A stretch of DNA of 64,000 bases from a virus: IMG/VR virus record IMGVR_UViG_3300013947_000003, positions 1-64,000 of that record; one strand, given 5' to 3'. A program made the position numbers and the translations under genes. Position 1 is the stretch's first letter; every line of letters starts with the position of its first letter. Of the stretch, positions 3,936 through 49,168 are shown piece after piece. The notes below the pieces were generated by a model. The model made no database searches and had not been told where the DNA came from. It saw nothing but the letters and a program-made list of their open reading frames with translations.

Positions 3936-3970
3936 AGGCGAGGGTTTTCACTCTCGCCTTTATTTTTATT
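3936..3970. terminator. bidirectional rho-independent terminator between convergent genes
   Basis: Stem AGGCGAG / CTCGCCT (3936-3959) has T-runs on both strands. It lies between the TAA at 3912-3914 (+) and the TAA at 3966-3968 (-). Confidence 0.7.
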
Positions 3971-6900
3971 CACATTCTAACATCTATTCCTATGATTGAA
4001 TACTTAACTAATCAAAATTAAATTTTCCGTCTTTTGCTCCAAATTTTTTAGCCAATTCTAATTTTCTTTGAGCATCTGTATTCCCCATTTCAGCATCGAA
4101 TTCTAATGCTGCATAACCTCGTAAGGCATCGGTTGCCGCATCATAAGCATTTTCATGAGTGTCTTCTATTTCACCAAGACCCCCTATTGTTCTTTTGCGT
4201 CTTCTAACTTTTGTAATTTTTTCTTTAGACTCTTTTTGTTTGTCTTCTCCCCCTTCTCTTGTATTTGTAGGCCCTTCAGGTCCTTCCGGACTCTATGGAG
4301 GTGTTGGGGACTCATTGTCGTCTCTTTTAACAAGTGCTTTTTCCTCTTCTAAAAGATCATTAAACTATATAGAGACACTTTTTTCTGCTACTAATACTTC
4401 TCCGGCATCTTTGAATCTAGTTCCTTTATACTCTGTGTATGGAGAAGATTCATTTGCTCTATATAAAAGTGTGCCATTTTCTGTAGCTGCATAGCTTCCC
4501 TATTTAGCATAATTATAATCCGAGAATACGTGGAATATTTTAAGACCATTTCTAGCAAAGTTTGCCTATATACCTTTTGATTCTAAAAACTACTAAGCAA
4601 GCATTTTGTATATAGACACCTGCTACCCCCATCTATTTTTATGCTAATCTATGCCAGGGCTATGATGAGTTTTAAAGTCAAATATTACAATATCTCCTTC
4701 GGCATTATATGCTATTAGATCCAATGTTCCTGCAACAGGTATAGTACCAATTTGTTTTCCATCCTAATATACTGGAAGTACTCCGTTTACAGTAAAACCT
4801 CTAGATTCAAAATGATACCCCTATCTAATAAGATTATCTCTAAAGTTTATTGCTTTATCATATAATTGCTTCCATTCAAATTCTTGAGCAATTGATAACT
4901 AGGCAAAAAGTTCTTGAAGTTCCTAAGTAGATTTTCCATCATATTCTCCATCAAAAAGATTTCTTAAGAATGTATCTACAGCATTACCTACGTGTTCACT
5001 AGGAAGCGCCCAGGGATTATTTTCATCATACCTTTTAGGGTTCCCATCTTTATCTCTTTCTGACAGTCTATCAGCTGCAAGTATAGAGGTTACTCTAGCA
5101 TGTGGATCTTTGCCTTCTCTAGTATAAAATTTTTCATCCTCAGTAAGTTGCCATTGTTTAGACTCTTCTTTTAAAATATTAAAAGCTTTCTAAGCTTCTC
5201 TTTGCGCTGCTTGTTGCTATAATAATTGCTACTAAATATTTTTTCCTTCTAAAGAAACTCCTGTGTCAGCATCTACCAGCCCATTGTTAGTTACCACTGC
5301 ATCTCCTTTTGTAGTATTAGATTCGGCATTATCTGTATTTGTTATTTCAGTTCTAGTTGTGTCTATTATAGGGGCGTTATTTGTTTGCTAAGGGGCAGAT
5401 AGTTGTATAACCGTAACATTAGTTTCAACTTTATTTGAATTTCCTCCTAATAATCCGTCATCATAAACAGTACTTAAATAAGTATGTGCAGCCTTAACAG
5501 CTTCTGCAGATGCTTCAATGTCCCCCATAAATGGAGATAATATTTTATCATCTATCTGCCAATTTACGTCTTTAATTAAAGAACCCCCATTATAGAAGAA
5601 GTTGGCTATTGTCTTTGCTACTTCCTGTGGAGTAAAGGGCTGGTCTGTAACAGTTGCTATTTGTTTATGTTCATTAGTAGCATTAGTTTTTAAAAATATA
5701 TTAACTTGAGGTCCATTTTCTGTAACTTCAACCCCTAATATAAAAGAATAGTCTGTAGGAGAGAAATAAACACCATTGGCATTAACAAATGCTTTTGTAA
5801 ACTATTCTGTAAGTTCTTCTAGTTTTTTAATACGAGATTCTTCATCCATACTTGCAAGCTCATTAGCATTGACAGTTTTAAAGAAAGCATTGAGTCTCTT
5901 TCCTATAAATGTAGCTCTACTATTAAATTCCTATCCTACTTCTCCACCATAAAACTATACATAAGCCTCCGGATTATTAAGTACATCTTCCACAACTTCT
6001 AATAATGTACGTCCTGTATATTTACTTCTAGCTTCATCTATTGCAGTAAAATCGTGTAGTCCTTCATTCTCATTACTACCTTCTATTCTTCTAAAAGAAC
6101 GAGCACGTTGTTTTTTTAACTCTTCTTCAGTTTCTTTTCCAGTACGAGCCTCTCTTATATATTCAGAAATAAACTTATTTCTTGCAGCTTTATATGCCTG
6201 TGTTTGCATCAGCTCATATTTGGTCTTACCTTTATATTCAGGGTGCTACTGTAGTATTTCATTTATAGATCTATCTGAAGATGGGGTATAACCTTCTCCT
6301 AAAGCTATAACTGTTCTAGTCTATGATACTTTTTTGATATCACTTGTTATTGGAGTATTATCTTCATCTTGTATTAATTCGTCTGTTTCTTTAATATTTT
6401 GTCTGATATAAAAAGATCTTCCGGAACCATAAGCATTTCTTGCCTATACTTTGGTATTTCTAGTAGAACTTAAAGTAGAATTAAAGGAACTAGGCATTAT
6501 TGCAATAGGCTAAAAGTTTTTAGGACCGTCTTTTGTTTCAAGTACTACTTTACCATTTTTATCCTCAACAACTGCAACCAATGGGGCATCTAATTCCTAA
6601 ATATGCTCCTCTCGTCTTTCTGTTATAGCGCTGGGAGAGTAATAATATACTGTTTTACCCTGTATAGTTGCAGCATGGTCCTATAAATATTTTTCAACTT
6701 CATTGTCTTCCCAATACCTTACTAATGATTCAGAAGCATTCCCTGAACTAATGTATTCTTTCATAGATAAACCTACCATTGTAGAAGAATTGGCCAATCT
6801 AGATAATTCCTACAAATTATCTTTTGTATTAAACCATCTTTTGTTGTTTATATTAACTTGAGAATCTTCTATGTCTAACTATCTATCTATTGCTGCACTT

Positions 6901-9900
6901 CTTAGGTATTTCTACAACTTTTCCCCAACTTTCTATGATAAAGTCTTCTTTGTCTCCTATTTAGTGTTTGCTGCTTTTATAGACTCTTGGGTTTTCTTAT
7001 AATTATCATAGTCGTTTAATATACCTAAAAGAACTTCACCATTTTTGGCTTCATTAGTATTTTCATCATTATTAGAAATGAGGGAGTTTGCCTACTTTCT
7101 TAATGCATTTAAAAAGTCAGCTTCAGACTCATATTCAAACTGCATTCCTCTAAATATATCAAAAAGAACTTGCCTCTGCTCATCGCTAACTTTGCCATTT
7201 GAGTTTATCTTATTATATATAAAAGTCTATGCCTATGAAAGCATACTAAATTCATCTTCAGATGTAGGTTCATTTTTTTTCTTCTTTTCCTCTTCCTTCT
7301 TCTTCTAATTTTCTTTTCTTTTCTTCCTATTCTCTCTTTGTTTTTGCTTTTTTGACTTAGATTCCTAAACAACTTCTTCTGACTCTTTAGCTGTTATCGG
7401 CTTTGCAACTTCTTTTGATGCTTCTGCTTCTTTAATACGTCTTTCAATTTCCTCCTAATAGGCATCCATAACATTATTATAGATGGACATAATTTCTTCT
7501 ACAGAATCAAAACTCATTCTTTCATTTTCATCTTTGGTTTCCTAATCTATTTCATCTATAAATTCTTGGATTAAAAATTTTCCTGTCTCTTTATTAACTC
7601 CTTGCAAAGCATCTATTACAGCATCTCTGTCTGTAAGTGATACTCCCTTACTTCTTAAAAGCTGTAATGCTGAAAATAAAAGTTCTTGTTGCCTATCATC
7701 AATAGAACGTAATTTTGGGTCATTAACAATGAGTCTCATCATAGTCAACTAATCATCTCTGCCTTCAGAATATCTCTCATAGAACTCAGGACTCATATCA
7801 CGTAAAACACGTTGTAAAGTTCTATAATCAACATCATTACTGTCTTCTGCCTCTTCAACTGCAGCAACCCAATCATCATAGTTCTTTATCCTGGCTATAG
7901 ACTCATATCTAAGCTGCCTATATCTTGCTCGTGCAATACGTGCTTCTCTAGTTCCCAATTCGCTAACTATAGTAGGATTTTTAAGAGCCAATGCATACTC
8001 TACCATAGATCTACTTATATTGTCTAGTAATACAGCAGAATCCTTAACAATATCATCAAACTCAGGATCTAAAAGTCTGCCCTAAGCTTTAACATTTTCT
8101 ATAATTCTTGCCTATTCTTCAGAATAATTGGTTAAATCTGAATTTAATATTAGTGCTCTTTGTCTTGCAGAAAGGTTCATTATCTCCTACTCATTAAGAA
8201 CAATTTCGTCACTATTAGCAGACTTTCTGTTTTTAAGTGTATTTACTCGTTTATTTATATTAGAGATCTCATCTTCAGTTTTTCTTATATCTTCTTTTAT
8301 TTTTGAAGTGTCTTTTCTGTCTGCTTTTTTCTTAGAATTTTCCTGTTTTAATTCTTCTCTAAGAGATTTTAGTTTTTCTTGTTTTTTTTCTAATTCTCTT
8401 CCCTACTATGCAACCTTCGCATCTACTATAGACTTGCTGCCATATTTAACAAGGTCATCAATTTGTTCTTGAGTACTTACTCCGTCGTGTCTGCTATTTT
8501 GAAATTCTTCAGACTTAGCAATCTAACTAATTCTATCCTCTAATTGCTTATGACGTTGTTTAAAATTTTCATTGGAAAGTTTCCCATAGATTAATCCTGC
8601 TGCCTAATCTGGTGTAAGCACGCCCAATTGTTTTTCTAAAGACTCTTTTATATCATCAATTTGGTCTAGCATTTTTGAGACATAAACAGCACGATCTTTA
8701 GCTAATTTTAGCTTATCTTCTCTAGACATTGACGGGTCTGCTATAGACTATACTAATGCCTCTTGCTATTCTTCTGTTAGATTATCTATATCAGTCATAT
8801 TTTTAAGCAGCTACATAGTACTGTTATAATATGCAGTACCTTTTAACTATGAAATCATAAGTGCTGAATGAACAAGACCTCTAAATAATGCATCTCGTCT
8901 TTCCATACCTGCACTATAATCTTCTGCTATTTGTATGATTTCACCTGCAGAAAGTACTCCCTATATAGATTTAAACATTTCAAGGCGCTTTTCATCTTCA
9001 TTTATCCAATCCTCTATAGCCTTAGCCTGCGAAATTCTATCCCATGCTCTTTGCTAGACACTTTTATAGTGCATTACAGCATTACTTTGAAAAGGAATTG
9101 CTCTTGCAATAGTCTTTAAAATGCTTTCCTTTTTGGCAGTACCATCATCATTTTTAATAGTGTTTCCATCTTTATCTGTGGCGTATTTTCTATTCCAAAA
9201 CTTTATAGTAGTTTCATATTTACCATCTTTTCCTCTAATAAGATTTCCATCTTTATCAGTTTTATAAGACATATATTTACCCCTAAGCCCGGTGAAGGGA
9301 GAGGGCATTAAAGAGCCTAATGCCCCATAGAATGCCTATTTCCAAGATTCAGGATCTACCATAGCATTAGTTGCAGCCTCACGTGCTGCTGCCCATTCTA
9401 TACCAAAAGTTTCTCCAATCATAGGAGTACTACCATTATAACGTTCTTTCATAAATTGGTGAATATTAGCCATTGCCCCCCCTTCTGCTGCAGCATCTGT
9501 AACAGACTGGAAATATTCTTCAGCACCCTCAGGTATAGCAACTCCTAAAGTGCCATTAATAAAACGTGTAAACGGCTAATACCACAAAGTTCGAGGTTTT
9601 ACAGTGGCTTTTCCTGTTCCTTCAACTTCTGTAGCTACAAAACGTTCTTTTGTAGATATAAATTTACCAAGTTTTGGGCTAACTTTATCTATTCTCCTAG
9701 CAATTGCATTTCTGGCATTACGTAGTGCTTCCTAAGTCCGCTTCATTGTCCACATTTCTGCAGTCATTGTGTGGAACAAACCATTAATCACAGAATTCAT
9801 CATAAGGTTCTATGTGCCTGCAGTTGCAGCAGCATCTTCAATTTGTGCTTTAACATCCTTAAACATATTATAATATGTAGGATCATCCCCACCATTAACA

Positions 9901-12014
9901 CCTGCTGCAATTATATTAAGGTAGTACTATGCAAGTTTTTCAGGATCATTTCCTACTGCTGCTTTAGCCTGTTTTTGTAGCCCTATAATATCAAATTGTT
10001 GCTACTATAAATAGCCTAACATATTATCTGTCAATTCAGAGTAACCGTTTCTAAGAACATTTTTTTCGGTTTGTAGACCTTCTATAATACCCTCATTGGT
10101 ACCAATAATTCCTGGGATTGTTATATTTACTAAATTATCGGCTTTATTAATTCTATTCTGTATTATGGCGAATCTTTTTTCAGCCTCTTCTAGCCCTTCT
10201 ATTTTACTTGCAAGGTCGGTCATCTACTATATTTTATTGGGGACTTTAAATGCCGTAGAAACTCCTTTGAACAAATATTTAGTTGCCAACCCTAATGCTC
10301 TACCTCCCAATGCAGAACCCCAAGTAAAACCACTTTGACCCCAAGCCTCAGATAGTGTGTGTGCAAAAAAGTTACTTATACTATAATCAGTAACATCGTC
10401 AGGATTAGCAAAAGTGTTTATTCCATATTTTTCCCAATCTTCATCAGAGGTAAACAACCCCTTTTCCATTTTTTCACTAGCCCACTCAGACAATGGATTA
10501 TGCATAACTCTATAAGAATATCCATCACCCCAGTTAAAAGGATTAAGAGCAGAACCTATCATACCAATAGTAGAAGCAGCAGTTGTTATAGTTGAATCAA
10601 TTGCTTGTACAGTTGCATTACCCCAGGCTTCATACCAAGGCATGTCTCTATATGCAGCAGCCTCTACTTCTTCAGCTATTCTTTTCTTTCCTGCCTCTTC
10701 TGCTTCTGCTTCTGAAAGTCCATGATTTAAAGCTGCTTCATAAGCTTCCGTATAAGCATATAACACTTTATCATAGTCTTCATTGGTCATCCAATCTTTA
10801 GCCTATTTAGGATCTTGTGTACCGTCATAAATTGCACTATCTACAAGTTTTTTATCCCTTGTTTTTTTGTACCAACCTGTCTACTATGCTATTGACTTTA
10901 TATATTGTAATTTCTCTTGTTTTTCCTCAATATTTTGATTATAATATGCTTCCCATTTACTTTCACTTTGTTTTTTATACTAGTTAGCTTCTTTTTCAGA
11001 TAACACTTGCGCCGTAGTATTATAATCAGAATACTGTTTTACATACTTTTCTCGTTCTTTAGGAGTTAGATCTTTAAATTTTTTATGTTTAGCATTTTTT
11101 ATTTTACTTTCATAATCTAAATTTTTAGAAGCTGCAGAGCTACTAACATTATAAGGAATAGGCTCAGTAGTAGCAAATGCAGATACTCTCAATGCTTCTG
11201 CAACATCTTCTGCATGTTTCTACTCTAAACTCTATAATAAGCTTTTAGGATCAACTCTGCCATTAACTTTATTAACTGTGTATATATTTGGAATATGGGG
11301 TGTGAAAATAAAATTACCATCATCACCTATATATACATCATCATCAGGATTTACAGACACAGCTTTTGGCTAATATACTGATATTTTTCTATCAGCAATT
11401 GCCTAATTAATAGCCATGGCATCCTATATATATTTCTCTAATTCCTATTTCCTCCTATACAACTTTGTATACCTTTTTAATACTTCGGGTTTATCTGCAT
11501 TTTCAAGAATAAATACGTTAGGAAGTCCTACAGCACCTAACTACTAGGTTATTTCCTAATATTCTTGAACTTCTTTATTATAGCTAATACCCAGTTTATT
11601 ATTTAAGGTCTTATCATAATTGGGGTTTAACACACTAGCACTGCCATTAATTTTACCAAGACTTTGTTGGAAATTATTTTCTACAGCAGGCTTTATATTG
11701 GTTGCATTATTAGAGGGTATTGTTGTATTATTATTTACAACAGAAGATTGTGTTGGCTATGTTGTCTATGTTGAGGCTGCAGCAATTTGAGTAGAATTGG
11801 TATTCTGTCCATTATATAAAGCAACCTTTTCATCAAATGAATTGGTTTTATCAAAAGCTCCTAATGCACTTTTTCCGTATTTCTATCTATACTAATATCT
11901 TAAAAATGCATTCTTTTTTTGTTCTTCTGACATACTTTTAATGTCATTATAATAAGTTTTAGCCCACTTATCATACTCTGACATACTTATATTTGTATTA
12001 TAAAAATTATTCAT
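3966..12014 (-). CDS. giant virion protein (~2682 aa with TAG=sense); possibly an ejected cargo or RNAP-type protein as in crAss-like phages, function not verified
   Basis: All minus-strand track ORFs from 5955 to 11192 share one frame (end coordinate mod 3 = 2). The junctions I checked are TAG only. The ATG is at 12012-12014 and the first TAA at 3966-3968 abuts the terminator. I did not check all 2.7k codons. Confidence 0.65.
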
Positions 12015-12028
12015 AATTAATAATTATT

Positions 12029-26512: not shown

Positions 26513-27496
26513 TTAAAGGTTTAATTTAGCCTCTATTGAAAATTTAATATCTTGATGTTTAGGATTATTAAGATATCTGGCAGCAATTCCTAATGTAGGT
26601 TCTTCATTAGCCTCACATAGAGGAGTGTTATCACTTCTTAAATATAAATAATCACCCCTCTTAGAAATAATACCATTGCTAATAGCCTTCTTTAAAAGAA
26701 CTTTTGTTTGAAGTAAAGGATCTGTAATTACTTTAATAAACATTTTACTATTAGCTTGAATTAAATCATTTATTTTAGTCTGTAGGTATTCAAGTTTAAC
26801 ATTAGGAGCTACTGTACGTCCTTCAAGAGTTTCTACTATAAGACTTAATGTATCTATATCATTTTCTATCTTACCATATTCTGCATAGCATCTCATAGTA
26901 ACAGACATTTTTTGCTTAGCATTGTTTACTTCATCTCCCTCAGAAATAATAACAAACTAATAGCTTGCTTTAGGGGTATTTTGCAAAGCATCTAATGAAG
27001 GTGCAATAAGGTTTTTATTAGCTAATAAAATCTTATATTTTATATAATCTTCTGGAGAAGACAGATCTAAAAAGTTGTCTTGTTTATGTAAAGTAACTTT
27101 AGAGATTCCTTGATCATTTGAATCATCCCAGAAGTTGTTTTCTTTTTTATAAATACTTAAAGCATTATATTCCAACTGCATGGTTTCTTCTAGAAACTGC
27201 TTCTCTTTATCTGTAAGCACATTTACATATACTCCTGAACTTAATCTGGGCACAGTAAAGGTTCTAGTTGCATTTTCTGCCATACCTCCATAGAGAATAT
27301 GCTTAGGGTTAGTTACCATGCTGCTAGCTTTGGGTATATATCTAATTATAACCCTTTCATTTCTTAAACAGTTAGGAACCACTTCATCATATGAATACTC
27401 AGGTTCCTTACTTTGCTTTTTATTAACTCTTTTTGGCATTGCCTGTAGAGGCAATTCATTATTTTCTAAATCTAATTCTTCCTCTTCTTTTTTCAT
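26513..27496 (-). CDS. hypothetical head-module protein (327 aa)
   Basis: Track ORFs 26957-27496 and 26513-26908 are in the same frame and joined by the TAG at 26957. The stop is TAA 26513-26515. Confidence 0.65.
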
Positions 27497-27529
27497 ACTT
27501 CTCCAAATTTAAAGGTTTATATTATTTAT

Positions 27530-27554
27530 AGGCTAGGGGATATACCCCTAACCT
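27530..27554 (-). terminator. hairpin downstream of the MCP stop (terminator-like)
   Basis: A 10-bp stem AGGTTAGGGG / CCCCTAGCCT lies 20 nt after the TAA at 27574. No clean T-run follows. Confidence 0.4.
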
Positions 27555-27573
27555 ATAATAATATAATAGTTTA

Positions 27574-30500
27574 TTAACCCTGCAGGCATGCAGGTATTAA
27601 TGACATTGTTCTGGTAGGGTCTAATACACAGATGCCAAAGGTTGCCATTCTGTGGAACACAGCAGCATCCTCATCAAAGCTCATGTATTGATTACCAATT
27701 TGTCCGGTAAAGGGATTTCTCAAACCGAACTAGTACCCTCTATATTCAGGCTGACCCTTAATCTGACATTTAAAGATATTAGGCTAATCCATAGAGCCAA
27801 TATCCATAATATCAAATCTATAAGACATGGCAGGACCACCATTAGGATGTTGTATCTTATTTCTAACAGGATCGTCGTACCCAATGTGTTATCGTATAGT
27901 TTTTTATCTACACTTCTTATACTTTATCATTGTATAAGTTCAGCATATATCATCATCCATATAGGATGCCGAACACTCTTGGGGAAATTATATTCTACTG
28001 TGTAGTTTCATTCCCTATGCGTTACACTGATTCTAGCACTTTAACTCTAGAATTTAGCACGGTATTGTCCGCCCCTACTTTCTGTAATTCATTGTAAAGT
28101 TCAATAGGTATTTGTATTATAGACCGTTCAAAAAAAGTTCTATTAAATTCTAACTTTAACCACTTCCAAGTTTTGCCGCTAACTATGTTTCTTATAGTTA
28201 TATGTCCTACTTTATATAATTTACTTATTAGTTTTATGCTAAATCCATAATTTAATAAAGTTGGTATAAGTAAAACCATTTCTTCAGTTAGTGGAGAAAG
28301 GTTCATATAAACCCTTTTATTTTCATCTATATTAAATTTAGCTGTGTACTATACATTATATTCTGTGGTACACCATTCTAAATTATTTACATTGTTATTT
28401 TTCCTATTGAAATCCTTATGATTTACATCGGGTAGGTTTTCGGGATTTGGTAGAAAAGCCGTCGCTACCAATCTATGTGTTTTTATGGTTTTTCTATTGC
28501 CATTGTCATCTACTAAAGTGTTTTGTAAGTAGTGGCCAGAATCTTCTGTTGGAGTTATGTATCTGTTTATAAACTCACTGTAGACTCTGCCATTACTATA
28601 TATTCTGTAGTGACTGTATCCCTTTATTTTTTTAAATTGTTCTTTCATAAATGTTTATTTATTAGAATAATTATTTGAAGGAGTTTACCGTTTTTGCTCG
28701 ATTTTCTTAACAGGTTTCCCTATTAAGCCGCCGTACTTAACGGATCAACGTCAATTTTCACTCTTACACCATTAGGAGCAAGATATTCAACAAACTAGTA
28801 ACCAGCACTAAGTGCATTGCTATGAAGTTTGTTCTGAGTTTTCTGTACGATTCCTAATTGATCACCATTTAATGTAAATGTGGTCCATCCTGAAATAGTA
28901 TCAAGAACTGCTTTATGGAATGCTATTGCACCCTTCTCACCAGTCTTTATAATGAAAGTTCTCTCACCAAAGTCTAACTTAGCAGCAGACAATTGATATA
29001 AGGCATCTTCAAGCAGTTTAAGACTGAAGTTATTATAATAGATGGTATTAGATACCTCCATCTACTCGAATAAACCAGCCCCGGTCTTAATTGCATTACC
29101 TGATTTGCCCATATTCATATATTCACCATTCTGAGTTCTATTGCTTCTACCGAATGCAAGGGCATTGTTCTTATATTCAGAGAACTGTTGTTCTAGCTGC
29201 CAATCTACATAGAACATCCACTTATTAACTACGTCTTTCTTATAGCCGTTAGTAGTTTCTTTTGCAACCGGAATACCACAAGCAATTTTCTTGTTAAGCA
29301 TAGAACCGGGTACCTTATGCTGAATTCTAATGGTAGACCATTCGTTACGCATAGATACAGGACTTGTGAATCTTATCATTTGTTACCTAAGAGGCTCTTT
29401 ATCCTCTTATTCTATATGTTGCCATATAGTTCGGAGCACATTTTAACCTTCAACTTTACTTGCTAAGGTCTGGACACTCGTGGAATAATTATACTGTCTT
29501 TAATTTTCCATTTGTATTTTTTACAGGAACATCAAACATCTTTAAAATTTGTTTTAATGTACTAAAACAAATCCCATATTTGTGCATTGTGTATTGCATA
29601 TTGACATTATGTGTTTTATAGTCTTCTGCAATGCTTCTACACTTTTCTTTATTCCTAAGTATATAATTTTTAGTAGTAACCTAAACACCATTAATACTTA
29701 AAAATCTTTTTATAGTTGAGCCTGCAACTTTATAAAGTCTGGATAACTTACTTAATGAATACCCACTTTTATACTGATTTATTAATGCCTCTCTTTCTTG
29801 ATCTGTTGGGCTAAATGTCCTGTCTTTTATTTCAACCTTATATAATTTAAGAACTCTTATAATGGTAGCTTTATCTACTTTATATTTAGCCCCAATCTTA
29901 TTACTGCTTATGCCTTTATTATACATGCTAATAATATCTTCTACTATATTTCTATCAGTATAAACATAAGACCTTTTACCTCCACCACCTAATGTGGAAT
30001 TATAGCCATTAAAGAAAGAATCATATTTATTTATATAGTAAATTTCAAAATCATCTAAATCTTTTACATTAACTCGTGCAACTTCTTCTATCTTAAAGTG
30101 TTCTTGCCCGAGCTCTCTAATTGCCTTATGAAATTTACTATTATCCATTAAGTTCTGTGATTTCTTTAAATGCCACTCCCACCTATTCTCTAATAGATAT
30201 ATAGTTTGTCCTATATAAACACTGGCATTTAAATCATTAGTTACTTTATAAATTATTCCTATCATACAAACAAAAAATTAAATATCCTCATATTCTGCTC
30301 TCTACACTACTTAATCTAGTTGGGATTAAGTTAGCACGGAATTGTCTAAACAAGAGAGTTCTTCCGTTTTTGCCCAATTTATTTATCATGTATTTCTACA
30401 TGAGGTGACATAAGATTGCTTTATGCAACAAGTCTATCACCGACTTTTCTACTAAGCTCTTTCTCTACGAAAGCAGCTTCAACTGAGAATCTTTCACCAC

Positions 30501-32668
30501 TGAGAAGTCTTTCAGAGGGAACACCTGTAGTGTTACCACCAGCAAGTTCTACAGTGTAAACAAAGTTGGTTCCCTCACTCTTGGGGTCACCTAAAATACG
30601 GAATTGATAGAGTTCGTTAAGCTCACCTACAATGTATTCCAAATGTTATCCTATAGGCTTTTTATCCTATAGTTCTATTACTTTACCATCGTAATAGTTC
30701 GGGGTAAATTTTCATCCTTTTCAGGAGTTGAGCACTCGTGGAAATATTATATTCTACGTTGGCCTTTTATTAACTAGCACAAATAACTTTTACTTATTTT
30801 CCATTTATTAATAATATCTTTTCTTGAAACTCCTTGATTTATTTCTTGTATTATCTACTATCTTTGTTCCTACGTTAATTTATAGGTTCTTGTTTTTCTA
30901 AGTATTATATTATTTCTTAATAACAGGTCTTTTATGGTGTATTTATCTACACTAAATATCTTTCCTATCTCTCTTAATGATTTACCTTTAGTATATTCCT
31001 CTATTATAGAGGTAGTTGGTAAATCTTTAAATGTTTTCTAAAACTATCCTCCTTTTGTTGAATTATAACCATTATAATAGGAATTATATTTCTATATCCA
31101 ATATATTTCTCGTTCATTTAAATTACTCTTGTTTACTATTTCTATCACTTCTAGTGTGAAATTCTATTTACCATATTTTTTGATTGCTTTATGAATTGTC
31201 ATATTAGCAACAGCTTCTCCACATTTTTTTGAACAATGCTAATAGAAGCGTTCCTTCACATCTTGAACAGTTTGTCCTATATAGACTTTACCATTAATTT
31301 TGTTTGTTATTTTATAAATAACGCCATTTGTAGTTTCAATTTCTACCCTCTACATTACTTTAATTTTTTACATTAAAGTTAACTCGGTATTACCCATTAG
31401 CTGGGGTGGGCTTCACCGATTTTGCTCAATTTTCTTTAAGTATATTACTATACTTAGATGGCGAATACTTCACCATCGGCAAACCAGTCTTCTGCAAAGA
31501 CTAATTCAAAGGGGGCTGTATGAGCACCTACCATCTTTTCACTTCCAGCAGTTACTACTGCACCATCTTCATCTCTTGCACACACAAGAGGGATGTTTCT
31601 TCTAGAGGAACCTATTACATCCCACGTGTATTCACTGTCATCATCGAATTCTTTAACAGGAAACTACGAAAGGAATGTATCAAGTGTTTTACCTCTGTAC
31701 CAAGCTAAAAGCTGTACCATAAGATTGGATGCCTTCTAAGGAGCAAGGCCAAAAATAGAACCGAGATGGTTCTCTTTAGTTAACATTCTGTTATCCTAAA
31801 AGCTTTTTATCTTTTAGTTCTTTCACTTTACCATTGTGAAAGTTCAGCATACATTTTCATACTGTTTAGTATGTTGGGCACTCGTGGAAGAATTATATTC
31901 TACGTTGTTATAGATGCAGGCTTTTCTAAAAGTTGAATAAGGGATATTTGCTAATTTAGCAGCGCTTCTTAAAGTTCTACCTTTTAACAAACACTCTAGT
32001 AAGACTTCCTTTGAAATATTATTAAATTTGGCACTAGACTCATGCCTATCTCTAATAATAACTCCTACATTTTTTAGTTCAGTACAAATAATATATCTAG
32101 ATACTTCAAATTTTTTTGCTATCTCTTCTAAAGTAAATTTTTTATTAATGTATAAATTTATTAAATCAGAAATACTCAAAATTTTTCTTTTAAATCTAGG
32201 TGTATTACCGCCTATACTAGCATTATAACCTTTGGATTTATCAGTAGAATTATATAATTCTATATAGTACATTTCTTTATAATCTAGATCTTCTAAATCA
32301 CATGTTTCTAACATTTCTATATAGAATTTATCTACTCCATACTTTTTCATAGCTCTATTAATAATTTGCTTACCATATTGTGCATGCCTAAGATGCTCCT
32401 TCCATCTTTGTTCTACACTAGTTCTGGTTTGCCCTATATAAACCTTATTATTAATAGTGTTTCTGATTATGTAAATAAATCCGTTCATAGTTTCATCTTC
32501 TATGCGTTACACTGTCCATAGATATTATTCTATGTCTTAGCACGGTGTTGTCCTTTACTATTGGAGGATTTCACCGTTTTTACCCAATTTTACAAGGGCT
32601 TAACTTGTGAGTCAACCCTTCCAATGCTGGAATCCAACCATTTGGAACTTACCTAATTTACCAGCCAT
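27574..32668 (-). CDS. major capsid protein (HK97-like, crAss-type), 5 exons: join(32668..32615, 31783..31472, 30639..30436, 29376..28740, 27881..27574), 504 aa
   Basis: Exon fragments appear in the track (30421-30642, 29062-29379, 28795-29061). The C-terminus reads ...FHRMATFGICVLDPTRTMSLIPACLQG*. Splicing at U.G 5' sites and terminal-G 3' sites keeps the frame at all four junctions (54+312+204+637+308 = 1515 nt). A scaffold gene lies immediately upstream. Confidence 0.75.
27882..28739 (-). mobile_element. group-I-like intron A (858 nt) with an HNH endonuclease ORF
   Basis: Shares conserved core blocks with the other three insertions (AAAATYGRGCAAAAACGG, ACCGTGCTAA, CCACGAGTG, GGTAAAGT, terminal hairpin plus GATAACA..TG). 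P1 is CCGT / GCGG with a U.G pair. Confidence 0.6.
28022..28648 (-). CDS. HNH homing endonuclease (NUMOD4/HNH-like), one in-frame TAG
   Basis: The N-terminal motif ...HRLVATAFLPNPENLPDVNHKDFNRKNNNVNNLEW is HNH-like. Track ORFs 28349-28648 and 28022-28306 are in the same frame and joined by a TAG. Confidence 0.7.
29377..30435 (-). mobile_element. group-I-like intron B (1059 nt) with a GIY-YIG ORF
   Basis: P1 is exon GGTGAT / guide GTCACC, with the terminal U.G at the splice site. The intron ends ...AACAAATG, and exon 4 resumes in frame at ATAAGATTC. Confidence 0.6.
29489..30265 (-). CDS. GIY-YIG homing endonuclease with three HTH repeats (258 aa with TAG readthrough)
   Basis: Begins MIGIIYKVTN...VYIGQT..RW.EH. 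The TAG at 29681 is followed by 60 more codons encoding a third copy of the HTH repeat (YTMHKYGICFSTLKQILKMFDV), ending at TAA 29489-29491. Confidence 0.7.
30640..31471 (-). mobile_element. group-I-like intron C (832 nt) with a TAG-rich GIY-YIG ORF
   Basis: P1 is exon GATGGT / guide GCCATC (U.G). The intron ends ...AACATTTG, and exon 3 resumes at GAATACATT in frame. Confidence 0.6.
30747..31355 (-). CDS. GIY-YIG homing endonuclease (202 aa), readable only with TAG=sense
   Basis: Starts ATG TAG ... and reads NGVIYKITNKINGKVYIGQT...YNGYNSTKGG. It has at least 9 in-frame TAG codons, including codon 2. The stop is TAA 30747-30749. It is invisible in the standard-code ORF track. Confidence 0.6.
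31784..32614 (-). mobile_element. group-I-like intron D (831 nt) with a GIY-YIG ORF
   Basis: P1 is exon AAGGGT / guide GCCCTT (U.G), 18 codons into the MCP. The intron ends ...ACAGAATG, and exon 2 resumes at TTAACTAAA in frame. Confidence 0.6.
31844..32488 (-). CDS. GIY-YIG homing endonuclease (214 aa), no TAG
   Basis: Begins MNGFIYIIRNTINNKVYIGQT...RWKEH...YNASIGG and has C-terminal HTH repeats. It ends at a TGA inside the intron 3' core. Confidence 0.8.
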   Translation of the reverse strand: MNGFIYIIRNTINNKVYIGQTRTSVEQRWKEHLRHAQYGKQIINRAMKKYGVDKFYIEMLETCDLEDLDYKEMYYIELYNSTDKSKGYNASIGGNTPRFKRKILSISDLINLYINKKFTLEEIAKKFEVSRYIICTELKNVGVIIRDRHESSAKFNNISKEVLLECLLKGRTLRSAAKLANIPYSTFRKACIYNNVEYNSSTSAQHTKQYENVC

Positions 32669-32690
32669 AAATTATATTATATTAAAAATT

Positions 32691-33827
32691 TTAAACATCT
32701 AAAGTCCAACCTTTTCCTATAAAGGATTCAGGATCTTTACTGCCTCCCATAAAATTAAGGTTTCCATCAGAAGATCTTTGAGTATTATTAAGAACATTTT
32801 CCAGTTCGCTAATACCCCTTTTTACTTCTTTTTTAACCTTACCTTTTATAAAACCACTTAAATCTTTAAACCCATTTGTTAATGTAAAAATAAGTCCCAG
32901 ATTTTTAATAAAGTCTACTTTATTCTCCATTTCATACTGTTGAATTGCAGTATAAAGTTCTCCAGTGCTTTTATCTTTATGCACAGGCTTCATTATATTA
33001 TCCAGAATCCTTTGTCTTGTATTTCTATCTACTTCTAAATCACCAAAAAATTTTTTATCTTCAAGTATAGATTTTTTAAGAGTTTCTATTTGTTCGGCCT
33101 ATTCTCTTTTGCTCTTCTCGGCTTCTTCTTCTGCATCTTTTACAACTTTATTATATGCAGTTTTATAAAAATCTATATTTCCTTGAAGAGCTTCTTTTGC
33201 ATCTTCTATATCTGTTCCGCCCTTTATAGATTTATCTACCTCTCTTTGAGCTTTATCCTAAGAATATCCTCTATTAATAAAATCCTAGTATATTAATTTC
33301 TTTCTTAAATCTTCACCTTGATCACTTTCTTCTTCTATAGCAGATTGCTAAATACTGTCTAAATAATTTAAAGCTCCTTCATATTGTTTAATAAGATCTG
33401 GTTCTACACCAACACCTAAAGCTTTATTTATTCTTTTATATTTATCATCTAATTCTGAAGAAATCTTACTTTCAATAAGTGTTCTAAAATCTTCCGGTGT
33501 TTCTATTTTAGAAATGTCTTCTTCATTAAGGTCAGGGAAAATACCATCATCTGCAAAAGCTTTAGCAATGGAAGAATAAAATTTAGGAGAAGTGCCCTTT
33601 TCAGATGTGGTACTTTCCTGTTCCTTAATTGTATCTTCTTCACTACTTACGCTCTCTGGTGAATCCTCAAATAAATTATCTGGATTAACCTCAGTAGTAT
33701 TTTCTTCTTTTTTCTCTTCTTCAGGGGCTCCTTCTACAGTTTCTGTAGTATCCTCCTGTACATCTTCATTAAACAGGTTTTCTATTTCTGAACCTGTATA
33801 AATATTATCAAATGATAAACCTTCCAT
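32691..33827 (-). CDS. scaffolding protein candidate (378 aa, acidic N-terminus, coiled-coil)
   Basis: Track ORFs 33348-33827 and 32691-32993 share one frame and are joined through TAG codons. The TAA at 32691 lies 22 nt upstream of the MCP ATG. Confidence 0.6.
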
Positions 33828-49081: not shown

Positions 49082-49095
49082 AATATTAAATTTAG

Positions 49096-49168
49096 TCGCC
49101 CCACTCAGAGTCGAACTGAGATCTTCAGATTTAGAGTCTGTAGTAATAAACCGTTATACTATAGGGCA
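49096..49168 (-). tRNA. suppressor tRNA, anticodon CUA (reads UAG)
   Basis: Folded by hand. Acceptor is UGCCCUA / UGGGGCG and the T arm is CUCAG-UUCGACU-CUGAG. The anticodon stem is CAGA / UCUG with loop CUCUAAA, which puts C-U-A at positions 34-36. Total length is 73 nt. Confidence 0.8.

What the first reader, a model, noticed from the sequence alone, without database searches (positions are those of the whole stretch)
27574..32668. The major capsid gene is interrupted by four related group-I-like introns, each carrying a homing endonuclease
MCP coding segments are separated by four insertions of 831-1059 nt: 27882-28739, 29377-30435, 30640-31471 and 31784-32614.
- **Shared RNA-level blocks.** The insertions share, in the same order on the minus strand, AAAATTGGGCAAAAACGG-like, ACCGTGCTAA, TTCCACGAGTG, GGTAAAGT and a terminal hairpin followed by GATAACA-n-TG.
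- **Splice-site pairing.** At each 5' junction the last six exon bases can pair with a downstream guide sequence, with a terminal U.G pair: AAGGGT/GCCCTT, GATGGT/GCCATC, GGTGAT/GTCACC, and a weaker CCGT/GCGG. Each insertion ends in G.
- **Frame restoration.** Using exactly these sites restores one continuous 1515-nt (504-aa) ORF. One junction splits a codon (T|GG = Trp).

Four introns in one capsid gene is an unusually high load, although introns and inteins have been reported as frequent in crAss-like phages.
Basis: partly seen in the sequence, partly recalled or inferred. Interest (0 to 1): 0.75.

Follow-up and report, generated by a model that had tools for sequence, protein, structure and literature searches.

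The report
Four group I introns split capsid gene
The major capsid gene of this crAss-like gut phage is interrupted by four related self-splicing (group I) introns, each carrying its own homing endonuclease gene; this is real and well supported, but it is a further example of something already reported for crAss-like phages rather than a new kind of thing.

Summary
Joining the five minus-strand segments gives a 1515-nt, 504-aa product. It matches Pfam Crass_capsid end to end (E=4e-211). It aligns without an indel at any junction to uninterrupted capsid proteins (crAss001 Gp32, cr85_1).

One correction: the spliced frame has six in-frame TAG codons. It is continuous only under the TAG-to-Gln recoding this phage uses throughout the window; a CTA-anticodon tRNA lies at 49095-49168.

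The four insertions share a group I core: P1 with a U.G pair, P10, P3-P9, a P3/P7 pseudoknot and a terminal G. A covariance model built from them found over 100 further complete copies in viral contigs. On those, 94.8% of cells pair (34-46% in slid controls) and 49 of 55 pairs show double changes.

Rfam RF00028 finds none of them.

Three introns encode GIY-YIG endonucleases and one an HNH endonuclease.

Four introns is not exceptional. Bajarodcaudo virus 1 and one IMG/VR contig have five in this gene, and Yutin et al. 2021 described a crAss capsid gene in five fragments.

Verdict: new member of a known kind. Splicing itself is inferred, not shown.

The parts
32615..32668 (-). Capsid (MCP) exon 1, aa 1-18; ends ...AAGGGT
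   Evidence: identical 18 aa in L002, L003, L083, L188, L190
31784..32614 (-). Intron 1 (831 nt), inserted after aa 18. P10 guide 32605-32600, P1 guide 32599-32594. No P2. 5' core runs to 32490; 3' core 31891-31784; ends in G.
   Evidence: ORF-less copies at the same site in L002 254-506 and L003 521-800
31844..32488 (-). Intron 1 endonuclease ORF, 214 aa: GIY-YIG domain plus helix-turn-helix tail, no TAG codons. It sits in the P7.1a loop. Its 3' end runs through P7.1', P3', P8 and P7' to a TGA in J7/9.
   Evidence: (PF01541 42.4 bits, cut-off 22.6)
31472..31783 (-). MCP exon 2, aa 19-122; two in-frame TAG codons
30640..31471 (-). Intron 2 (832 nt), inserted after aa 122. P10 guide 31468-31463, P1 guide 31462-31457, P2 hairpin 31456-31437. 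3' core 30745-30640.
   Evidence: same site occupied in L002
30747..31355 (-). Intron 2 endonuclease ORF, 202 aa, GIY-YIG. It has 10 in-frame TAG codons and no TAA or TGA, so it is readable only with TAG recoding. The start codon lies just 5' of the P7 strand.
   Evidence: (PF01541 47.1 bits)
30436..30639 (-). MCP exon 3, aa 123-190
29377..30435 (-). Intron 3 (1059 nt), inserted after aa 190. P10 guide 30416-30410 (7 bp), P1 guide 30409-30404, P2 30403-30386. 3' core 29487-29377. P9 has a GCAA tetraloop.
   Evidence: same site occupied in L208, L210, L212
29489..30265 (-). Intron 3 endonuclease ORF: GIY-YIG plus helix-turn-helix domains. 258 aa with one TAG read through; 194 aa if TAG stops.
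   Evidence: (PF01541 27.8 bits)
28740..29376 (-). MCP exon 4, aa 191-402 plus the first base of codon 403; two in-frame TAG codons
27882..28739 (-). Intron 4 (858 nt), inserted inside codon 403. P1 guide GCGG 28731-28728 (4 bp), P10 GUAC 28736-28733 (offset by one base), P2 28727-28706. The endonuclease ORF lies in the P5 loop, not in P7.1. A junction one base further 3' (27881-28738) cannot be fully excluded.
28022..28648 (-). Intron 4 endonuclease ORF: HNH_3 family. 208 aa with one TAG read through; the standard code gives two ORFs of 99 and 94 aa. Its 3' end overlaps P4', P6 and J6/7.
   Evidence: (PF13392 30.9 bits, cut-off 24.8)
27574..27881 (-). MCP exon 5, aa 403 (last two bases) to 504, plus the TAA stop; two in-frame TAG codons
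49095..49168 (-). tRNA with anticodon CTA (TAG suppressor), needed to translate the spliced capsid mRNA and three of the four endonuclease ORFs in full
   Evidence: ARAGORN; Rfam tRNA, 52.4 bits
27511..27572 (-). Long, near-perfect hairpin directly after the capsid stop codon; a candidate transcript end or stabiliser
   Evidence: sequence; hairpin visible in the chance Rfam alignments; not called by the terminator scan

Best explanation
The capsid gene is transcribed as one roughly 5.1-kb late pre-mRNA holding four group I introns of one subfamily. The subfamily is IA-like, with a T4 td-like P4-P6 domain and an extra P7.1 hairpin between P7 and P3'.

Splicing, as inferred from the anatomy:
1. 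Each intron folds into the P3-P9 core with the P3/P7 pseudoknot.
2. Its internal guide sequence pairs with the last 4-6 exon bases (P1, ending in a U.G pair).
3. An external guanosine bound at the invariant G-C pair of P7 attacks after that U.
4. The guide sequence then holds the next exon (P10), the terminal G of the intron enters the same site, and the exons are joined.

The spliced 1515-nt mRNA is translated into a 504-aa crAss-type capsid protein. Its six TAG codons are read as Gln by the phage's own CTA-anticodon tRNA.

Each intron carries a free-standing endonuclease gene in a terminal loop. Introns 1-3 have GIY-YIG genes in the P7.1a loop, and intron 4 has an HNH gene in the P5 loop. 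These enzymes presumably cut intron-less capsid alleles of co-infecting relatives, so that repair copies the intron in (homing).

Shown here: the exon structure and colinearity, the conserved and covarying RNA structure, the P1/P10 pairings, the endonuclease domains and the recoding.

Inferred: actual splicing, endonuclease activity and homing.
For: Exons.
- The spliced product matches PF23898 Crass_capsid over positions 2-494 of 496 in one stretch, E=4.2e-211.
- tblastn covers residues 1-504 in one piece at 73-81% identity in 109 phage records.
- There are no gaps at any junction against crAss001 and cr85_1.

RNA structure.
- P3, P4, P7 and P7.1 are fully paired in all six aligned cores, with compensatory changes between introns 1-4. 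For example, P7 is GCAUA/UAUGC, GGGUA/UACCC and GAGCA/UGCUC.
- Model R1 finds 119 hits in 100 viral loci, over 100 of them complete ORF-less copies.
- On that alignment 94.8% of cells pair, against 34-46% when the partners are slid. 49 of 55 pairs have double changes, and 0 of 500 shuffles reach the observed values.
- P7 was not part of the model and is 98.5% paired, with an invariant G-C pair next to a bulge.

Guide sequences.
- Introns 1-3 have a contiguous perfect P10+P1.
- The intron 4 pairing covaries with its homologue in L206-L212.
- P10 of intron 1 covaries with a synonymous exon change in L002.

Link to canonical group I.
- R1 aligns element by element to an RF00028-positive intron, L002 4649-4928, E=6e-07.
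- R1 weakly hits the td P4-P6 region, E=0.004.

Endonucleases and recoding.
- Pfam domains score above their cut-offs in all four ORFs.
- All 12 internal stops in the endonuclease ORFs are TAG.
- Reading through TAG raises open frames of at least 150 codons from 13.3 kb to 52.8 kb of the window.

Intron life cycle and precedent.
- ORF-less derivatives of intron 1 sit at the same site in cr128_1 and bajarodcaudo virus 1.
- Most close relatives are uninterrupted.
- Metatranscriptome reads support group I splicing in other Bacteroides phages (PMC12880540).
Against: Rfam RF00028 does not detect any of the four introns, nor their ORF-less relatives, even at E<=10.

There are no RNA data for this phage, so splicing is inferred.

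Intron 4 has only a 4-bp P1, and its P10 is offset by one base. A junction one base further 3' would give a better P1/P10 and Leu instead of Trp at residue 403. Trp is seen in 0 of 74 uninterrupted relatives (F 67, Y 4, L 2, M 1).

The endonuclease ORFs overlap core helices, which could interfere with folding during translation.

The start codon of the intron 2 endonuclease is uncertain.
Confidence: 0.9

Rival explanations
1. The gene is split and never spliced. Free-standing endonuclease genes have broken the capsid gene into five separately translated pieces that assemble in the virion. The conserved flanking sequence would belong to the mobile endonuclease cassettes, not to ribozymes.
For: GenBank annotators list the pieces as separate 'major capsid protein' CDSs in cr128_1 and bajarodcaudo virus 1. 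Free-standing endonucleases are known to split phage genes (general knowledge of T4-type phages).
Against: Exons 2-5 have no start codons or ribosome-binding context at their 5' ends, and one junction lies inside a codon. ORF-less 253-280-nt copies of the insertion persist at the same site, so the conserved sequence is not an endonuclease cassette. The RNA helices covary, and the guide sequences pair with both flanking exons. An 18-aa first fragment is implausible as a separate capsid subunit.
Confidence: 0.03
2. The introns, or some of them, are decayed and no longer splice. On this reading the window comes from a defective or mis-assembled genome with a dead capsid gene.
For: The sequence is of metagenomic type with no functional data. 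Intron 4 has a weak P1. The intron 2 endonuclease has 10 TAG codons, which could look like decay.
Against: All four cores keep every helix fully paired. The exons are 73-81% identical to functional capsid proteins, with no frameshift or non-TAG stop. All internal stops are TAG in an AT-rich sequence where decay would mostly give TAA. Homologous introns at the same sites recur in independent contigs.
Confidence: 0.04
3. The insertions are another class of intervening element: group II introns or inteins.
For: Both classes occur in phage genes, and crAss-like phages carry inteins (PMC7886860).
Against: No reverse transcriptase or maturase ORF is present. The only group II match anywhere was a 15.6-bit chance hit in L002, and there was none in the window. 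The endonuclease ORFs are in other frames, have their own start and stop codons, and lack Hint domains. The RNA core has the group I topology.
Confidence: 0.01

Closest known systems
Intron-split capsid genes of crAss-like phages (Yutin et al. 2021, PMC7886860: Zeta-group cMAG OLRF01000054, capsid gene in five fragments; Delta-group capsid introns)
   Same: The host gene is the same and the fragment count is the same (five fragments, four insertions). The insertions carry endonuclease genes. Stop-codon recoding co-occurs in both host and intron ORFs.
   Different: This phage belongs to the Beta group (Steigviridae, Asinivirinae-like; nearest relatives are cr85_1, cr128_1 and crAss001). That paper did not highlight this group as intron-rich. 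The published cases were recognised from protein domains only, whereas here the RNA core and both splice sites are defined.
Interrupted capsid genes of cr128_1 (NC_055885) and bajarodcaudo virus 1 (PQ006092), and of IMG/VR contigs L208, L210 and L212
   Same: The capsid proteins are orthologous (about 77% identity). The introns belong to the same family (R1 hits). Sites aa18 and aa122 are shared with L002 and L003; sites aa190 and aa402 are shared with L208, L210 and L212.
   Different: The combination of occupied sites differs: 18, 122, 190 and 402 here, out of nine sites seen in all. Intron 1 here still carries its endonuclease, while in those two GenBank genomes it is an ORF-less remnant. 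The relatives also carry an RF00028-type intron at aa456, which is absent here.
Phage T4 td intron (subgroup IA2) with I-TevI
   Same: Both are group I introns in an essential phage gene, with a GIY-YIG endonuclease ORF looped out of the core. The P4-P5-J5/4-P4'-GCUAA segment is very similar (sequence; R1 hit E=0.004). The 3' tail is of the ...AACAnnnUG type.
   Different: The P7 and J8/7 sequences differ: GCAUA / GAAAAUGUAUGC here, against GACUA / GAAGAUAUAGUC. There is a single extended P7.1/P7.1a hairpin with conserved UGAAAC and AGAAUAUAAU loops. The ORF position differs too: the P7.1a or P5 loop here, against P6 in td (td position from my own knowledge). It is not a member of the same subfamily by model score.
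Intron-interrupted capsid genes in other phages and viruses (Cluster J mycobacteriophages, PMC3706429; Jug phages, PMC12880540)
   Same: Group I introns interrupt structural or late genes. Metatranscriptome or RT-PCR evidence shows that such introns splice.
   Different: Those cases have one intron per capsid gene, not four, and the hosts and intron lineages are unrelated.

Membership tests
Group I self-splicing intron | 5' splice site follows a U that forms a U.G wobble with the internal guide sequence (P1) | tested here: met
   Met in all four: AAGGGU/GCCCUU, GAUGGU/GCCAUC, GGUGAU/GUCACC (6 bp each) and CCGU/GCGG (4 bp).
Group I self-splicing intron | Intron ends in G (omega-G) | tested here: met
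   Met in all four. The homologue of intron 4 in L206-L212 ends in G only in the same register.
Group I self-splicing intron | P10: the guide sequence 5' of the P1 strand pairs with the start of the 3' exon | tested here: met
   Introns 1-3: 6-7 bp, contiguous with P1. Intron 4: 4 bp offset by one base, covarying with L206 (GUAC/GUAC against GUAA/UUAU). P10 of intron 1 covaries with L002 (GUUAA/UUAAC against GUCAG/UUGAC).
Group I self-splicing intron | Conserved core P3-P4-P5-P6-P7-P8-P9 with the P3/P7 pseudoknot | tested here: met
   All helices are present. On 104 distinct sequences 94.8% of cells pair, 49 of 55 pairs show double changes and 0 of 500 shuffles reach the observed values. P7 was not fitted by the model and is 98.5% paired.
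Group I self-splicing intron | Guanosine-binding site: a conserved G-C pair in P7 next to a bulged nucleotide | tested here: met
   Columns 268:481 are G-C in 97 of 99 sequences. A bulged base separates this pair from the covarying 266:482 pair (AU 56, GC 39). That it binds guanosine is an inference.
Group I self-splicing intron | Match to the Rfam RF00028 covariance model | tested here: not met
   No hit in the window at gathering score or at E<=10. No hit in the ORF-less copies of L002 and L003, nor in 14 other complete family members. Control: RF00028 also misses a T4-type td intron, though it does find other introns in L002 and L003. Model R1 aligns to one of those, E=6e-07.
Group I self-splicing intron | Guanosine-dependent self-splicing demonstrated | not testable with these tools
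   Needs an in vitro transcription and splicing assay, or RNA-seq.
Subgroup IA2 (T4 td type) | Extra helices P7.1 and P7.2 between P7 and P3', and sequence similarity to td, nrdB or sunY | tested here: inconclusive
   One extended hairpin (P7.1 plus P7.1a) lies between P7 and P3' and covaries. R1 hits only the P4-P6 region of td, at 14.3 bits, E=0.004. Subtype-specific models were not available.
GIY-YIG homing endonuclease (I-TevI-like) | GIY-YIG catalytic domain plus a C-terminal DNA-binding module, encoded inside an intron | tested here: met
   PF01541 scores 42.4, 47.1 and 27.8 bits (cut-off 22.6) for the ORFs of introns 1-3. Helix-turn-helix families match the C-terminal halves, mostly below their cut-offs. 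Cleavage activity was not tested.
HNH homing endonuclease (I-HmuI-like) | HNH domain encoded inside an intron | tested here: met
   PF13392 HNH_3 scores 30.9 bits (cut-off 24.8) for the intron 4 ORF.
crAss-type major capsid protein | Full-length match to PF23898 and colinearity with crAss001 Gp32 | tested here: met
   702 bits over positions 2-494 of 496. Residues 1-504 align at 73% identity in one piece.
Intein | In-frame insertion with a Hint splicing domain, translated together with the host protein | tested here: not met
   The insertions contain stops in the exon frame. The endonuclease ORFs have their own start and stop codons, and no Hint domain was found.

The most novel reading that the evidence does not exclude
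The four introns belong to a large, coherent subfamily of phage group I introns that the standard Rfam model does not see at all.

The subfamily has a distinctive P7 and J8/7 sequence and a P7.1/P7.1a hairpin with conserved UGAAAC and AGAAUAUAAU loops. It missed 0 of 14 complete ORF-less copies only in the sense that RF00028 found none of them.

It is widespread. At least 100 complete copies occur in IMG/VR, in crAss-like, Staphylococcus, Clostridioides, Bacillus and Oenococcus phages, often several per gene.

If this subfamily is also absent from catalogues seeded from RF00028 hits, group I intron counts in phage genomes are systematically too low. Many 'fragmented' phage genes would then be ordinary spliced genes.

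The crAss capsid gene, with nine distinct insertion sites in 504 codons, would be a natural system for studying how such introns pick and hold sites.
Probability: 0.3. Interest if true: 0.5.

Novelty: new member of a known kind. Interest (0 to 1): 0.35.

Why it matters
For annotation. The capsid gene of this phage, and of relatives now deposited as strings of 'major capsid protein' fragments, can be given exact exon coordinates and a single 504-aa product. To do so, an annotator must handle introns and TAG recoding at once.

For intron biology. The case shows a homing-endonuclease life cycle within one gene family:
- endonuclease-bearing, endonuclease-deleted and empty sites all occur;
- nine insertion sites are known in the gene;
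- two different endonuclease families sit in two different loops of the same ribozyme scaffold.

It also shows that endonuclease genes have adapted to the phage's alternative code. One has 10 TAG codons, which ties its expression to the phage's suppressor tRNA.

For methods. Absence of an RF00028 hit should not be used to reject a phage group I intron.

Tried and rejected
Rfam searches.
- Scans of the whole window (gathering score) and of 27300-33000 (E<=10) found only tRNAs and chance snoRNA or miRNA matches.
- I first took this as possibly due to the ORF insertions. The ORF-less homologues are missed too, so the cause is divergence of this subfamily from the model.

Other attempts.
- MAFFT alignment including the exon flanks and P1/P2 (A1) misaligned the variable 5' end. 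I dropped it for a trimmed core alignment (A2).
- The promoter and terminator scan of the region gave counts no different from shuffles for promoters, and no convincing minus-strand terminator inside the introns. It is uninformative for a Bacteroidota phage.
- The search for related loci with the capsid protein ranks uninterrupted genes first. It cannot serve as an unbiased census of introns per gene.
- A literature search for 'bajarodcaudo' found nothing.

Alternative junction for intron 4.
- I considered a junction one base further 3' (Leu403), because it gives 5+4 contiguous P1/P10 pairs.
- I rejected it as the first choice. The homologous intron in L206-L212 would then end in A, and the conserved ...UG 3' end would be lost.
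- It is not excluded.

I considered group II introns, inteins and unspliced split genes; see the rival explanations.
Full report
**What is in the sequence**

Joined, the segments make 1515 nt. This is not an open frame under the standard code, because it holds six in-frame TAG codons. With TAG read through, it encodes 504 aa.

The 504-aa product is a full-length crAss-type capsid protein:
- It matches Pfam PF23898 (Crassvirus major capsid protein) over positions 2-494 of 496, E=4.2e-211.
- tblastn against 50,697 phage records covers residues 1-504 in a single piece at 73-81% identity in uninterrupted genes of crAss001, IAS virus, cr85_1 and others.
- A three-way protein alignment shows no gap at any of the four junctions. 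They fall in conserved motifs: HWKG|LTKENH, DWFADG|EYIVG, RKVGD|IRFTSP and VDP|WYDDP.

The six TAG positions align with Gln in cr85_1 (6 of 6) and crAss001 (5 of 6). A tRNA with anticodon CTA lies at 49095-49168. Reading through TAG raises the open frames of at least 150 codons from 13.3 kb to 52.8 kb of the window.

**The insertions are one family of structured RNAs**

|---|---|
| AAAATTGGGCAAAAACGG | J2/3, P3, J3/4, P4 |
| ACCGTGCTAA | P4' and the joining segment before P6 |
| TTCCACGAGTG | P7.1' and the run into P3' |
| GGTAAAGT | Loop of P9 |
| Terminal hairpin | P9.1 |
| GATAACAnnnTG | 3' tail, ending in G |

In an alignment of the four cores (ORFs excised) plus two ORF-less relatives, P3, P4, P7 and P7.1 are 100% paired, with compensatory differences between the four introns:
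- P7 is GCAUA/UAUGC in introns 1 and 4, GGGUA/UACCC in intron 2 and GAGCA/UGCUC in intron 3.
- P3 is UUGGGU/GCCCAA, UUGAGC/GCUCAA, UUGGGC/GUCCAG and UCGAGC/GUUCGG.

A covariance model of this core (R1: 230 positions, 49 pairs, with P7 deliberately left out because it forms a pseudoknot with P3) gave these results:
- In the 64-kb window it hits only the four insertions.
- In 100 viral contig stretches, fetched with a short 3'-core pattern, it found 119 matches. Over 100 of these are complete ORF-less copies of 200-290 nt scoring 90-224 bits.

On that alignment:
- 94.8% of cells form standard pairs, against 34-46% when partners are slid by 1-3 columns.
- 49 of 55 pairs show changes on both sides.
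- No shuffle out of 500 reaches the observed values.
- P7, which the model did not fit, is 98.5% paired.
- One P7 pair is G-C in 97 of 99 sequences. It sits next to a bulged base, in the position of the guanosine-binding pair of group I introns.

**Splice sites**

Each 5' exon ends in U, and that U pairs with G of a guide sequence within the first 32 nt of the intron. Each intron ends in G.

In introns 1-3 the six P1 pairs are directly preceded by six or seven bases that pair perfectly with the start of the next exon (P10): AGUUAA, GUAUUC and AUCUUAU. This contiguous 12-of-12 arrangement was reached in at most 0.2% of random 60-nt stretches of the window, a rate consistent with stretches that overlap the real sites. 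P10 of intron 1 covaries with a synonymous exon change in bajarodcaudo virus 1: guide GUCAG with exon UUGAC, against GUUAA with UUAAC.

Intron 4 is weaker. Its P1 is CCGU/GCGG and its P10 is GUAC/GUAC, offset by one base.
- A junction one base further 3' would give nine contiguous pairs and Leu403 instead of Trp403.
- Five IMG/VR contigs carry the homologous intron at the same site.
- Trp is seen in none of 74 uninterrupted relatives at this position (F 67, Y 4, L 2, M 1), so this junction needs RNA or peptide evidence.

**Relation to canonical group I introns, and the Rfam result**

Rfam RF00028 does not detect any of the four introns. It also fails on:
- the ORF-less homologues of intron 1 in cr128_1 and bajarodcaudo virus 1;
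- 14 of 14 other complete family members at E<=1;
- a T4-type td intron in its genomic context, which is the textbook self-splicing phage intron.

RF00028 does detect a different intron, at capsid codon 456, in the two relatives (77 and 43 bits). Model R1 aligns to that RF00028-positive intron element by element, E=6e-07:

| Element | Canonical intron | This family |
|---|---|---|
| After P4' | AGCCAA | AGCUAA |
| J6/7 into P7 | GUUCAACGACUAU | GUGUAACGCAUAG |
| J8/7 into P7' | GAAGAUAUAGUCUGAAC | GAAAAUGUAUGCUGAAC |

J2/3, P3, P4, P8 and P9 also correspond. R1 also gives a weak hit on the td P4-P6 region (E=0.004), whose sequence is visibly similar.

The family is thus a divergent, IA-like branch of group I introns.

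**Endonuclease genes**

| Intron | ORF (window, minus strand) | Length | Family | Bits (cut-off) | In-frame TAG | Position in ribozyme |
|---|---|---|---|---|---|---|
| 1 | 32488-31844 | 214 aa | GIY-YIG | 42.4 (22.6) | 0 | P7.1a loop |
| 2 | 31355-30747 | 202 aa | GIY-YIG | 47.1 (22.6) | 10 | P7.1a loop |
| 3 | 30265-29489 | 258 aa | GIY-YIG | 27.8 (22.6) | 1 | P7.1a loop |
| 4 | 28648-28022 | 208 aa | HNH_3 | 30.9 (24.8) | 1 | P5 loop |

The scores come, and the ORFs and TAG counts. None of the ORFs has an internal TAA or TGA. This argues for recoding rather than decay.

The three GIY-YIG proteins are only 32-37% identical to each other, and the intron cores are 58-74% identical. The four introns are therefore family members, not recent copies of one another.

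The ORFs overlap core helices at their ends. In cr128_1 the intron at codon 18 keeps a fused remnant, the start codon plus the last roughly 20 codons of the intron 1 endonuclease. That is the expected trace of endonuclease loss.

**How unusual is it?**

The same capsid gene is interrupted in other genomes:
- Three times in cr128_1, at codons 18, about 292 and 456.
- Five times in bajarodcaudo virus 1, at codons 18, 122, about 292, about 338 and 456.
- Four times in IMG/VR contig L208, at codons 61, 190, 402 and 456.
- Five times in IMG/VR contig L212, at codons 61, 149, 190, 402 and 456.

Together these give nine insertion sites, of which this phage uses 18, 122, 190 and 402. Most close relatives are uninterrupted (though that ranking is biased towards uninterrupted genes).

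Prior literature:
- Yutin et al. 2021 described a crAss-like capsid gene split into five fragments, and intron ORFs carrying recoded stops. They also reported a Beta-group genome that had acquired a TAG suppressor (PMC7886860).
- A 2023 review repeats this (PMC10136315).
- Splicing of predicted group I introns in other Bacteroides phages has metatranscriptome support (PMC12880540).

**Verdict**

The phage itself is new: at most 74% nucleotide identity to deposited genomes in the portal and terminase genes. The phenomenon is a further member of a known kind.

The least ordinary by-product is that this intron subfamily is abundant in phages of several host phyla yet invisible to RF00028. A recent comprehensive group I database was seeded from RF00028 hits (PMC11835236). 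Whether that database holds this subfamily could not be checked here.

Noticed in passing
window 1-64000; tRNA at 49095-49168 (-): TAG is used as a sense codon throughout the window. Stop-to-stop frames of at least 150 codons cover 13.3 kb under the standard code and 52.8 kb with TAG read through. One frame, 3969-12023 (-), holds 81 TAG codons in 2685 codons. A CTA-anticodon tRNA is encoded in the window. ARAGORN labels it Pyl, but the capsid alignment indicates Gln.
   Followed up: partly
window 27511-27572: A long, near-perfect AT-rich hairpin with a GGGG/CCCC core lies directly after the capsid stop codon. It attracted chance Rfam miRNA and snoRNA matches. It is a possible transcript end or RNA stabiliser.
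   Followed up: no
L003 (NC_055885 cr128_1) 521-800; L002 (PQ006092) 254-506: ORF-less copies of intron 1 sit at the same capsid site. The cr128_1 copy keeps a fusion of the endonuclease start codon with its last roughly 20 codons (MIRKACIYNHIEYNSST...), which is a footprint of internal deletion of the endonuclease gene. Neither record annotates an intron here.
   Followed up: partly
L214 (NC_029048 phiCD211) 2501-2625 and 2654-2919: In the Clostridioides phage tape-measure gene, an unannotated 3' core of this intron family lies 28 nt upstream of an annotated 'Intron_gpI' RNA. The two intervening elements are tandem or nested, and only one is recognised by the Rfam-based annotation.
   Followed up: no
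L081 6696-7724, L087 3102-4130, L049, L079, L082: Several viral contigs carry three copies of the same intron family within about 1 kb or within one locus. Multi-intron genes built from this family are therefore common outside crAss-like phages. The host genes were not identified.
   Followed up: no
L071 1846-2055 (-): A complete copy of the intron family (137.8 bits) lies inside a dense tRNA gene cluster, between tRNAs at 1020-1092 and 2350-2420. Whether it interrupts a tRNA gene was not examined.
   Followed up: no
window 59364-59431 (+): Rfam calls a fifth tRNA (44.9 bits) that ARAGORN does not report.
   Followed up: no
window 28740/27881 (codon 403): The spliced codon is TGG (Trp), where 67 of 74 uninterrupted relatives have Phe and none has Trp. 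The homologous intron-bearing allele in L206-L212 would have Tyr. Intron-bearing alleles thus differ from the consensus exactly at the insertion site. This is as expected if exon bases are constrained by P1/P10 pairing or are co-converted during homing.
   Followed up: partly
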